64,000 bases of DNA from a virus. The stretch is from the IMG/VR virus record IMGVR_UViG_3300009314_000709, positions 1 through 64,000 of that record. One strand, given 5' to 3'. The notes beneath the pieces were generated by a model. It made no database searches. It was not told the DNA's origin and saw nothing but the letters and a program-made list of their open reading frames with translations. The position numbers and the translations under genes are program-made. Shown piece after piece: positions 45,761-48,520 of this stretch (position 1 is its first letter; each line of letters starts with the position of its first letter).

Positions 45761-45782
45761 ACAACCCTCTCACACACAAAAA

Positions 45783-46079
45783 ACACGTCAGTCTCGTACC
45801 CAGGATTCTGTTTAATGCGGCCATTTATCTGGTGGCCTCGACCCGGCTATCATAGCCCTGTTCACCGGCTAAGCCTGTTTGAGTTGCACCCTCTGGGGTC
45901 CAAGCGGATGTATGCCAGGCACATTTACCTTGGCGTGATGTCAAGCGTTTCGCTGTTTGCACTCACGCAAGCCGTGAATGGCCGATCATACACCCTCCCC
46001 CATTAGAACAGCGGTGTCCTGAAGTTCCTCACATCCTTACTGGTAGGTAAGGGTAGTGCGACCGCTCGGACTGACGTAT
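45783..46079 (-). ncRNA. rnpB: RNase P RNA (bacterial type-A-like catalytic domain, divergent S-domain, no P18)
   Basis: P1 AUACGUCAGUC/GACUGACGUGU; P2 GCGGUCG/UGGCCGC; CR-I GAGGAACUUCAGGAC; CR-IV AGAUAAAUG; CR-V ACAGAAUCCUGGGUA; P5 CACC/GGUG-CAA; P6 CUGUUC/GAACAG; L15 GGU. Confidence 0.9.
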
Positions 46080-46091
46080 CTGGTTTACAAT

Positions 46092-46307
46092 TCACCCTAC
46101 GTGTGAAAGGTGTGTGATGGTGCCATCTTCGACGACGACATTGAGCCTATTCGTACAGTAGTCGGCGGTTCCAACGTAGCATTTGCCGTCTTCTTGTAAG
46201 ATGCGTAGAGTGAAGCCCTTTGATTCTACCAGATGTTTAGCTTGATCGATTTCTAATCCGATAATGCTCTTACTGAGATATCGCTTTGCGTTCAACCGAA
46301 CCCCCAA
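46092..46307 (-). CDS. peptidase inhibitor I78/I13-like small protein
   Basis: IIGL..DQA and TADYCTNRLNVVVEDG.I...HVG. Confidence 0.7.
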   Translation of the reverse strand: MGVRLNAKRYLSKSIIGLEIDQAKHLVESKGFTLRILQEDGKCYVGTADYCTNRLNVVVEDGTITHLSHVG

Positions 46308-48026: not shown

Positions 48027-48074
48027 AAAAACAGGTCACACCACCAGGCTGGAGACCCTGGTGGTGTGAACCTG
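48027..48074 (-). terminator. intrinsic terminator
   Basis: CAGGT(T)CACACCACCAGG/CCTGGTGGTGTGACCTG followed by U5 on minus strand. Confidence 0.8.
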
Positions 48075-48520
48075 ATAAGGTCTTAGGGCCGCCACCTGGC
48101 TCATCACCTGGTGACTTGTAGTTTTTATGATCGCCCTTTGGCTAGCCATGTCGTTTTACCAGAACGACACCGGGTTGTGTCATATGCTCCACTTGGCCTA
48201 GCCGTAATGCCTCAGCATGGGCGTAGGCGACCTTTCAACTTCACATCGACTGAAACTTCCCTTTGATTGTTTACACCGCTCTGGGAGCGAACGTGTCTTT
48301 GGCCCGGAGGCCACACTAATGCAAACGTACAAAAGTTCCATTTCACCGACGCTACGTGATAAGGCAAGTGATGCAACACAACAAAAAGACGACCAGGACT
48401 ACCAAACCCAGACAGTTGCTTTTCACCGCACAGTGCTTATTCGCTTCGGGGCTGTCCTCCCCTACCATGCGGCTTCCGGCGCATCAGGCCGCAGCCTGAC
48501 AGAAACACCCAAGACCTTAT
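48075..48520 (-). ncRNA. unidentified ~445-nt structured RNA with paired ends
   Basis: AUAAGGUCUUGGG pairs with CCCUAAGACCUUAU; many internal hairpins; terminator immediately after. Confidence 0.5.

What the first reader, a model, noticed from the sequence alone, without database searches (positions are those of the whole stretch)
45783..46079. Phage-encoded RNase P ribozyme with a covaried P4 core and remodelled specificity domain
Seen: the minus strand of this intergenic gap contains the RNase P RNA landmarks in the correct order. These are an 11-bp P1, P2, a P3 hairpin, CR-I GAGGAACUUCAGGAC (46016-46030), P5 ending GGUGCAA, a P6 pseudoknot CUGUUC/GAACAG, P15/P16 with a GGU, CR-IV AGAUAAAUG and CR-V ACAGAAUCCUGGGUA (45797-45811), followed by a U-run. 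Against the E. coli P4 (AAG-U-CCGGG/CCCGGCUU), four of eight pairs are substituted (ACU-U-CAGGA/UCCUGGGU). All eight still pair and the bulged U is kept, which suggests selection on structure. P18 is absent, and the S-domain reads as a non-canonical multi-hairpin junction (GGGUGUAUG/CAUACAUCC closing three small hairpins). Known: RNase P RNA is the cellular tRNA 5'-maturation ribozyme and is not a standard phage gene. Inference: the phage supplies its own catalytic RNA, borrows host RnpA, and may process phage tRNAs or have altered substrate choice. No tRNA or rnpA is in this window.
Basis: partly seen in the sequence, partly recalled or inferred. Interest (0 to 1): 0.95.

Follow-up and report, generated by a model that had tools for sequence, protein, structure and literature searches.

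The report
Phage-encoded reduced RNase P RNA gene
A fragment of a large tailed phage carries its own slimmed-down copy of RNase P RNA, the ribozyme that trims new tRNAs, with the whole catalytic half kept and the usual substrate-reading half replaced by one long unusual arm.

Summary
Window 45781-46077 (minus strand, 297 nt) matches Rfam's bacterial class A RNase P RNA end to end (46.8 bits, E 3.5e-13). That is below Rfam's curated cut-off of 100 bits because the specificity (S) domain and P18 do not align. A covariance model built from 12 other phage and metagenome copies, without the window, finds this one site in 64 kb at 135.2 bits, E 5e-31.

Across 25 distinct copies, 97.0% of base-pair cells pair and 28 of 36 pairs show changes on both sides. 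This includes the P4 and P6 pseudoknots, which the aligning model did not contain.

The contig is viral: it carries a tail sheath, a baseplate hub and strong PHROG matches.

Three things set this copy apart. A roughly 90-nt arm sits on P7 and is shared in outline with only one relative, L142. There is no P18. There is no tRNA gene in the whole 72-kb record, whereas 19 of 24 relatives' stretches hold tRNA genes.

Catalysis, the use of host RnpA and the substrates are all inferred, not shown.

This scan has already reported phage miniature RNase P RNAs on other DNA. Six literature searches found no paper that describes them.

The parts
45781..46077 (-). Whole RNase P RNA homologue, 297 nt as bounded by Infernal. 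P1 may extend four more pairs, to 46081.
   Evidence: RF00010, 46.8 bits, E 3.5e-13, model 1-367; duplex fold extends P1 to 15 pairs.
46067..46077 (-). P1, 5' strand. It pairs with 45785-45796, giving 11 bp with one bulged A.
   Evidence: pair table; cognate duplex energy -21.3 against -12.4 (sd 3.5) for non-cognate tails.
46060..46065 (-). P2, 5' strand. It pairs with 45817-45822 (6 bp).
   Evidence: P2 differs in sequence but still pairs in L045 (6 of 6 cells) and L046 (6 of 6 cells) in the same table.
46030..46058 (-). P3 hairpin: a 3-bp base, an internal loop and a 6-bp top.
   Evidence: The P3 base sequence is shared with L002 and L041-L048, which were found through a pattern built on it.
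46016..46030 (-). CR-I. It contains the 5' strand of P4 (46017-46025) with the bulged U.
   Evidence: helix 1: 95.0% of cells paired, 6 of 8 pairs changed on both sides.
46006..46016 (-). P5, 5' strand (46013-46016), and P6 pseudoknot, 5' strand (46006-46011).
   Evidence: P5 100% paired; P6 99.2% paired, with 5 of 5 pairs changed on both sides.
45894..46002 (-). P7 (45998-46002 with 45894-45898) and everything it encloses. The arm stands where the S-domain would be.
   Evidence: P7 96.0% paired, 4 of 5 pairs compensatory; fold energy -44 kcal/mol, z -2.83.
45906..45995 (-). The arm itself: a 9-bp closing helix (45987-45995 with 45906-45914) around 72 nt of uncertain fold.
   Evidence: The three base pairs of the closing helix are 97.3% paired in 25 copies (helix 5). 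The interior is shared in outline only with L142.
45837..45891 (-). P5 3' strand with the GCAA junction, then P15, P16 and P17. The GGU sits in the internal loop, and the P17 loop supplies the 3' strand of P6 (45858-45863).
   Evidence: helices 6-8: 94.7-98.7% paired.
45797..45830 (-). CR-IV (45822-45830), P2 3' strand (45817-45822), and CR-V (45797-45811) with the P4 3' strand (45798-45805). No P18 lies between P15 and CR-IV.
   Evidence: alignment A4 shows P18-like inserts at this spot in L007, L008, L015 and L022 but not in the window.
45766..45784 (-). U-run directly after P1. Its distal part (45766-45781) can pair over 16 positions (6 of them G-U) with 46095-46110 upstream of the RNA.
   Evidence: No terminator-like hairpin was found by the consensus scan. 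The meaning is open.

Best explanation
This is a phage gene for a reduced RNase P RNA.

Shown from sequence and comparison: the transcript can fold into the complete catalytic (C) domain of bacterial-type RNase P RNA. That means P1-P7 and P15-P17, locked by the P4 and P6 pseudoknots, with the bulged U of P4, CR-I, CR-IV, CR-V, the GCAA junction and the GGU loop that binds the tRNA 3' end. It lacks the canonical specificity domain and P18.

Inferred: during infection the RNA joins the host's RnpA protein, because the 72-kb record encodes none, and removes the 5' leaders of pre-tRNAs. The main substrates would be the many tRNAs that phages of this kind encode. The window's phage probably carries them elsewhere in a genome that CheckV rates as only 14% recovered.

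Substrate recognition would rest on the acceptor stem, the 3' end and the protein rather than on the T-loop/D-loop 'ruler'. The long arm on P7 may brace the core or touch the substrate.

It is probably cut out of a long minus-strand transcript, since no promoter or terminator of its own was found.
For: - Homology: RF00010 at 46.8 bits, E 3.5e-13, covering the full model. The leave-one-out phage model R2 gives 135.2 bits, E 5e-31, the only hit in 64 kb, with no non-standard pair flagged.
- Selection on structure: in 25 distinct copies 97.0% of cells pair, against 77.0% in shuffles (0 of 500 shuffles reach it) and 26-43% when partners are slid. 28 of 36 pairs change on both sides. P4 and P6 were not in the aligning model.
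- RNAalifold predicted P4 on its own from the 12 other copies.
- Viral setting: tail sheath, phrog_23, 1e-79; baseplate hub; phrog_28378, 1.5e-166. The sheath is 26-34% identical to sheaths of T4-like and other myoviruses. GC content is even along the window.
- Link to tRNAs: 19 of 24 relatives' stored stretches hold tRNA genes, up to 25. The relative with the most similar core and arm, L142, lies among 16 tRNA genes, all 16 with an encoded CCA end.
- Three relatives with no tRNA nearby have 36, 50 and 50 tRNA matches elsewhere in their records.
Against: - No tRNA gene lies in the window or in the whole 72,432-bp record, so the presumed substrate is not seen here.
- No rnpA is in the record, and the host is unknown.
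- The score is below Rfam's curated cut-off (46.8 against 100 bits), and there was no hit in gathering mode.
- There is no expression evidence.
- No sigma-70-like promoter, T4-late-like box or hairpin terminator was found on the minus strand next to it.
- The arm has only one look-alike, L142, so its fold and any role are untested.
- Every relative found is at most 75% identical in the core.
- The strong model scores partly reflect how the relatives were collected, through patterns drawn from this RNA.
Confidence: 0.62

Rival explanations
1. The RNA is a decoy or regulator rather than an enzyme. It binds host RnpA, or pre-tRNAs, and so diverts or throttles host tRNA maturation during takeover.
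For: The parts of the C-domain known to hold the protein are kept (a recalled point, not tested here). No tRNA lies near this copy. A review discusses a poxvirus RNase P-like RNA as a possible decoy (PMC3001073, passage read).
Against: A decoy would not need the catalytic features, yet all are conserved: the bulged U of P4, the single-stranded CR-I, CR-IV and CR-V bases, the GGU loop and the P6 pseudoknot. Most relatives sit inside the phage's own tRNA arrays, which fits processing better than sabotage.
Confidence: 0.12
2. It is an active ribozyme with a different main substrate. Lacking the tRNA-measuring domain, it would cut phage messenger or precursor RNAs that mimic an acceptor stem, or release itself and its neighbours from the long minus-strand transcript.
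For: It sits inside a run of same-strand protein genes, roughly 43.9-50.3 kb, far from any tRNA. A 16-position pairing brackets the RNA. The arm on P7 is not a canonical S-domain.
Against: No candidate substrate was identified. The family as a whole is tied to tRNA arrays. The bracket helix is rich in G-U pairs and may be chance.
Confidence: 0.12
3. It is a decaying relic of a captured host rnpB gene with no present function in this phage.
For: It has lost P18 and the S-domain, it has no tRNA neighbours, and no close relative was found.
Against: Every core helix is intact in this copy, with no non-standard pair against the leave-one-out model. A relic would show broken pairs. The reduced architecture is shared by 25 divergent copies that keep pairing through double changes.
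Confidence: 0.06
4. The locus is cellular: either a reduced rnpB of a small-genome bacterium on a misclassified or chimeric contig, or host DNA flanking a prophage.
For: The right half of the record (about 39-72 kb) is dominated by sugar and glycan enzymes with weak phage-family matches. The record is a fragment with no end repeats.
Against: Phage-family matches lie on both sides of the RNA: phiEco32-type ligase at 48.5 kb, phrog_3677 at 6.1e-77 at 53.8 kb, and a tail-tube-like domain at the far end. GC content is even. The RNA scores far better on the phage model (135 bits) than on the bacterial one (46.8 bits). No tRNA, rRNA or other Rfam family reaches its cut-off in 64 kb.
Confidence: 0.04

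Closest known systems
Bacterial class A RNase P RNA (rnpB; Rfam RF00010)
   Same: Same C-domain plan and order of parts: P1-P7, P15-P17, the P4 and P6 pseudoknots, CR-I, CR-IV, CR-V, the bulged U in P4 and GGU in the P15/16 loop.
   Different: No P8-P14, CR-II or CR-III and no P18. It is 297 nt and scores 46.8 bits against a cut-off of 100. It is encoded by a phage, not a cell.
Phage miniature RNase P RNAs reported earlier by this scan (e1-371790, e1-5337811, e1-5337829, e1-5367886)
   Same: Same class: a phage-borne catalytic half with a short helix closing P7. The window scores 135.2 bits on a model built from 12 such copies collected here. Those copies come from my own searches, not from the earlier reports.
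   Different: Those copies are 156-229 nt and lie in tRNA clusters (texts). This one is 297 nt because the P7 hairpin is extended by about 90 nt, and no tRNA lies within 72 kb.
Type T RNase P RNA of Thermoproteaceae archaea (Lai et al. 2010, as summarised in PMC7191817)
   Same: [quoted passage not shown]
   Different: Type T is archaeal and cellular and works with archaeal proteins. The window's RNA has the bacterial P15-P17 arrangement and the P6 pseudoknot. The short relative L002 did match the archaeal model best, but the window matched the bacterial one.
[quoted passage not shown]
   Same: A virus-encoded RNA that resembles RNase P RNA (passage read).
   Different: It belongs to a virus of animals and resembles the eukaryotic RNA. 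The passage discusses it as a possible decoy. No sequence comparison was made here.

Membership tests
Bacterial class A RNase P RNA (RF00010) | CR-I, CR-IV and CR-V present in order, with their conserved single-stranded bases | tested here: met
   alignment. CR-I is at 46016-46030, CR-IV at 45822-45830 and CR-V at 45797-45811.
Bacterial class A RNase P RNA (RF00010) | P4 helix formed between CR-I and CR-V, with a bulged U | tested here: met
   8 of 8 pairs plus the bulged U; 95.0% paired in 25 copies, 6 of 8 pairs changed on both sides.
Bacterial class A RNase P RNA (RF00010) | P1-P3, P5, P15-P17 and the P6 pseudoknot | tested here: met
   P1 and P2 are supported less formally.
Bacterial class A RNase P RNA (RF00010) | Specificity domain: the P7-P10 cruciform, P11-P14, CR-II and CR-III | tested here: not met
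   In one search the S-domain positions of the model are skipped. P7 encloses a single arm. Short resemblances to CR-II and CR-III are not in the canonical order.
Bacterial class A RNase P RNA (RF00010) | P18 hairpin | tested here: not met
   one nucleotide stands in its place. One search agrees.
Bacterial class A RNase P RNA (RF00010) | Score at or above Rfam's gathering cut-off (100 bits) | tested here: not met
   no hit; 46.8 bits.
Bacterial class A RNase P RNA (RF00010) | Cleaves pre-tRNA 5' leaders, aided by RnpA | not testable with these tools
   No rnpA in the 72-kb record. The assay is listed under next steps.
Phage-encoded reduced RNase P RNA (class seen earlier in this scan) | Core matches a model built from other phage copies | tested here: met
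   leave-one-out model R2 gives 135.2 bits, E 5e-31, the single hit in 64 kb.
Phage-encoded reduced RNase P RNA (class seen earlier in this scan) | Lies in a phage genome | tested here: met
Phage-encoded reduced RNase P RNA (class seen earlier in this scan) | Lies in or beside a phage tRNA gene cluster | tested here: not met
   0 tRNA genes in 72,432 bases. 5 of 24 relatives' stretches also hold none. The three of those whose whole records were checked carry 36-50 tRNA matches elsewhere.
Type T RNase P RNA (archaeal) | Archaeal-type core with the S-domain nearly absent | tested here: inconclusive
   The S-domain is absent, but the best clan match for the window is the bacterial model. The overlapping lower-scoring clan match was not shown.

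The most novel reading that the evidence does not exclude
Large phages carry their own RNase P ribozyme lineage, and in this branch (the window and L142) the lost tRNA-measuring domain has been replaced by a newly evolved long arm on P7. The arm gives the phage enzyme its own substrate rule, so that the phage matures its own tRNAs or other transcripts independently of, or in preference to, the host's.
Probability: 0.25. Interest if true: 0.88.

Novelty: new variant of a known kind. Interest (0 to 1): 0.78.

Why it matters
RNase P RNA is treated as a universal cellular housekeeping ribozyme. If phages encode their own stripped-down versions, then viruses take over yet another step of the translation supply chain, alongside their tRNAs, tmRNA and ribosomal proteins.

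These RNAs would also be natural minimal ribozymes. They show which parts of the enzyme are dispensable, and they are attractive for structural and engineering work.

This copy adds two points to the class:
- The site on P7 where the S-domain used to sit can grow a new arm.
- The gene need not sit among tRNA genes.

None of this appears in the papers I could search.

Tried and rejected
**Searches for closer relatives**
- Protein route. The neighbouring 277-aa gene has no relative in viral contigs or in the phage records.
- Arm motif route. A pattern built on the motifs shared by the window and L142 gave 4 viral and 26 genome stretches. In none of the 30 did my script find both a GAGGAA (CR-I) upstream and an ACAGAA (CR-V) downstream of the match, so I read them as chance matches. 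No further copy of this arm was found.

**Modelling and folding**
I modelled the core from CR-I to CR-V instead. P1-P3 therefore rest on the Rfam alignments, on the helix table (where MAFFT misaligned some rows) and on a cognate-versus-swapped duplex test. That test is only moderately clear: P1 -15.0 against -10.6 kcal/mol and P2 -10.1 against -7.1 kcal/mol.
- A two-sequence RNAalifold run on the arm was spoiled by misaligned ends and is not used.
- I considered that the arm is a shrunken S-domain, because short strings resemble CR-II and CR-III. I rejected this as unproven: the strings are not in the canonical order, and Infernal does not align them in the window, L142 or L134.

**Expression and signals**
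- No RNA holder was listed for the stretch. The three runs that were laid gave only one 249-base DNA contig identical to 45844-46092 and nothing from the two RNA runs. This says nothing either way about expression.
- Promoter and terminator scans found nothing on the minus strand beside the RNA.
- The core tree is poorly resolved around the window, so only identities are used.

Full report
**What is there**

The minus strand of window 45781-46077 reads as an RNase P RNA.
- At Rfam's curated cut-offs the whole window gives no match to any family.
- In E-value mode the stretch matches bacterial class A RNase P RNA (RF00010) from the first to the last model position. The score is 46.8 bits, E 3.5e-13 for the 901 bases searched, and E 6.5e-15 against the whole record.
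- The alignment covers P1, P2, P3, CR-I, P5, the GCAA junction, P15-P17 with the GGGU loop, CR-IV, the P2 return strand, CR-V and the P1 return strand.
- It skips the model's P8-P14 and P18.

My own helix table gives P1 of 11 bp with one bulged A, P2 of 6 bp, P3 of 3 + 6 bp and P4 of 8 bp with the bulged U. It also gives P5 of 4 bp, the P6 pseudoknot of 6 bp, P7 of 5 bp, a 9-bp helix closing the insert, and P15, P16 and P17. Against the consensus printed, four of the eight P4 pairs differ on both sides and still pair.

**Is the contig a phage?**

The window is bases 1-64000 of a 72,432-base IMG/VR record. The record has no end repeats, and CheckV rates it 14% complete, which would imply a very large genome.
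- It encodes a 777-aa tail sheath (phrog_23, 1e-79), a baseplate hub and a protein matching phrog_28378 at 1.5e-166.
- The sheath is 26-34% identical to sheaths of cyanophages, a Pseudomonas phage and a Bacillus phage.
- On the other side of the RNA lie a phiEco32-type ligase gene, a strong phrog_3677 match (6.1e-77) and, at the far end, a phosphatase fused to a tail-tube-like domain.
- GC content is even, 0.44-0.54.

The genes around the RNA are auxiliary: an epimerase, an esterase, an ABC-membrane-like protein and a TPR glycosyltransferase. A cellular or chimeric origin is therefore unlikely, though not excluded for the right-hand part.

**Relatives**

A sensitive blastn search of phage records found one partial match, in the 642-kb uncultured phage LR756502.1. 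There a 205-nt RNA matches the archaeal RNase P model at 32.4 bits.

Pattern scans drawn from the conserved motifs then gave many more copies in IMG/VR contigs. Several scans also returned chance matches in coding DNA, which I set aside by eye.

A covariance model of the core from CR-I to CR-V (R1, 153 positions) matched 53 places in 100 sources and 25 places in 65 sources at E <= 0.001. The 25 distinct copies above 95 bits were aligned as A4. The weaker hits (27-68 bits) were left out of the counts. They may be other phage clades or cellular genes.

**Covariation**

The counts below are on A4, with P4 and P6 added as pseudoknots that the aligning model did not contain.

| Measure | Observed | Shuffled control |
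|---|---|---|
| Cells forming a standard pair | 97.0% of 891 | 77.0% (0 of 500 shuffles reach it) |
| Same, with partners slid 1-3 columns | n/a | 25.9-43.4% |
| Pairs changed on both sides | 28 of 36 | mean 16.5 |
| Covariation score | 0.577 | 0.185 |

- P4 is 95.0% paired, with 6 of 8 pairs compensatory.
- P6 is 99.2% paired, with 5 of 5 pairs compensatory.
- The nested helices were fitted by the model, so they lean towards it. P4 and P6 do not.
- RNAalifold, run on 12 copies without the window, predicted P4 unaided.
- The resulting leave-one-out model R2 finds one site in the window, 45797-46030(-), at 135.2 bits and E 5e-31, with no non-standard pair.

One caveat applies. The relatives were collected with patterns taken from this RNA, so they are biased towards its sequence type.

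**The arm**

In the short relatives P7 is closed by a 3-bp stem. The stem is capped by a 4-nt loop in L005, L016, L030, L045 and L046, and by a 7-nt loop in L002 and L022 (alignment).

In the window this stem is 9 bp long and encloses 72 more nucleotides. Minimum-free-energy folding makes a single irregular rod of it (-44 kcal/mol, z -2.83, 1 of 200 shuffles as good).

Only one other copy, L142, has a comparable arm. L142 comes from a 12.9-kb metagenome contig and is the nearest relative, at 75% core identity.
- Its arm is 95 nt from P7 to P7.
- It also folds as a rod.
- It shares an A-rich apical motif and a GUAAA bulge on the 3' side.
- Its helices differ in sequence from the window's but still pair.

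Two sequences cannot establish a fold. A search for more copies failed. Other relatives carry different modules at the same site, including a well-conserved one of about 120 nt in ten copies. P7 is therefore a hot spot for expansion. Rfam's model does not align any of these modules to the S-domain.

**Context and likely role**
- Of 24 relatives' stored stretches, 19 hold tRNA genes. L005 holds 25, L043 holds 21 and L142 holds 16. L045 holds 9 plus a tmRNA gene.
- Five hold none: L002, L034, L046, L061 and L155.
- For L002, L034 and L046 I searched the whole records and found 50, 36 and 50 tRNA matches elsewhere.
- The window's record has no tRNA and no rnpA, but it is a small part of its genome.

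The most economical reading is that this RNA pairs with host RnpA and matures pre-tRNAs, chiefly the phage's own. This step is inferred.

The RNA lies inside a run of minus-strand genes, and no promoter or terminator was found beside it. It is therefore probably processed out of a longer transcript. A 16-position pairing that brackets the RNA could serve that processing, or it could be chance.

**Known and new**
- Type T archaeal RNase P RNA shows that a natural RNA nearly lacking the S-domain can be active (PMC7191817, passages read).
- A paper on phage theta ribozymes treats tRNA 5' processing as the job of the cell's RNase P (PMC10879173, passages read).
- Six full-text searches turned up no paper describing a phage-encoded RNase P RNA. 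For most papers I saw listings and abstracts only, and supplements were closed.
- This scan has already reported the class on other DNA (e1-371790, e1-5337811, e1-5337829, e1-5367886, e1-5981551). This window is a further, atypical member.

**Verdict**
- I put about 0.9 on a real, selected, phage-borne RNase P RNA homologue.
- I put about 0.6 on active pre-tRNA processing with a host protein.
- The fold and role of the arm are open.

Noticed in passing
L044:1511-2306 (also L042, L047, L048): In four IMG/VR contigs the phage RNase P RNA gene is split into a 5' half and a 3' half about 0.5 kb apart (two R1 hits each). In L044 the gap encodes a 211-aa GIY-YIG plus NUMOD3 homing-endonuclease ORF. 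Rfam found no group I intron there. This could be an intron or a split gene.
   Followed up: partly
L007, L019, L061, L071, L095, L123, L134, L155, L161, L162 (P7 insert of each): Ten copies share a conserved module of about 120 nt on P7 that differs from the window's arm. It may contain interleaved helices. Rfam does not align it to the S-domain in L134.
   Followed up: no
window 46095-46110 with 45766-45781: A 16-position pairing, 6 of them G-U, brackets the RNase P RNA, joining the end of the upstream ORF to the GU-rich run after P1. It could be a processing stem or chance.
   Followed up: no
window 48027-48520: A gene-free stretch of about 0.5 kb, 2 kb upstream on the same strand, ends in a strong GC-rich hairpin followed by a U-run. 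It has no Rfam match at E <= 1.
   Followed up: partly
L045:1020-1389: A tmRNA gene sits inside a phage tRNA array a few hundred bases from that phage's RNase P RNA gene.
   Followed up: no
L007, L016, L033, L134, L161: These five relatives' stretches each hold a tRNA with anticodon CUA, labelled Pyl by ARAGORN. That is an amber-suppressor type and hints at recoded phages.
   Followed up: no
L142 (whole 12.9-kb contig): All 16 tRNA genes of the contig that holds the nearest relative encode their 3' CCA. In L045 and L043 none of 9 and none of 21 do.
   Followed up: partly
window 39355-64000 and L032 (record 59000-72432): A long block of sugar and glycan enzymes lies in a phage: TPR glycosyltransferase, epimerase, aminotransferases, a sialyltransferase-like protein, and a phosphoheptose-isomerase-like domain fused to a tail-tube-like domain.
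   Followed up: no
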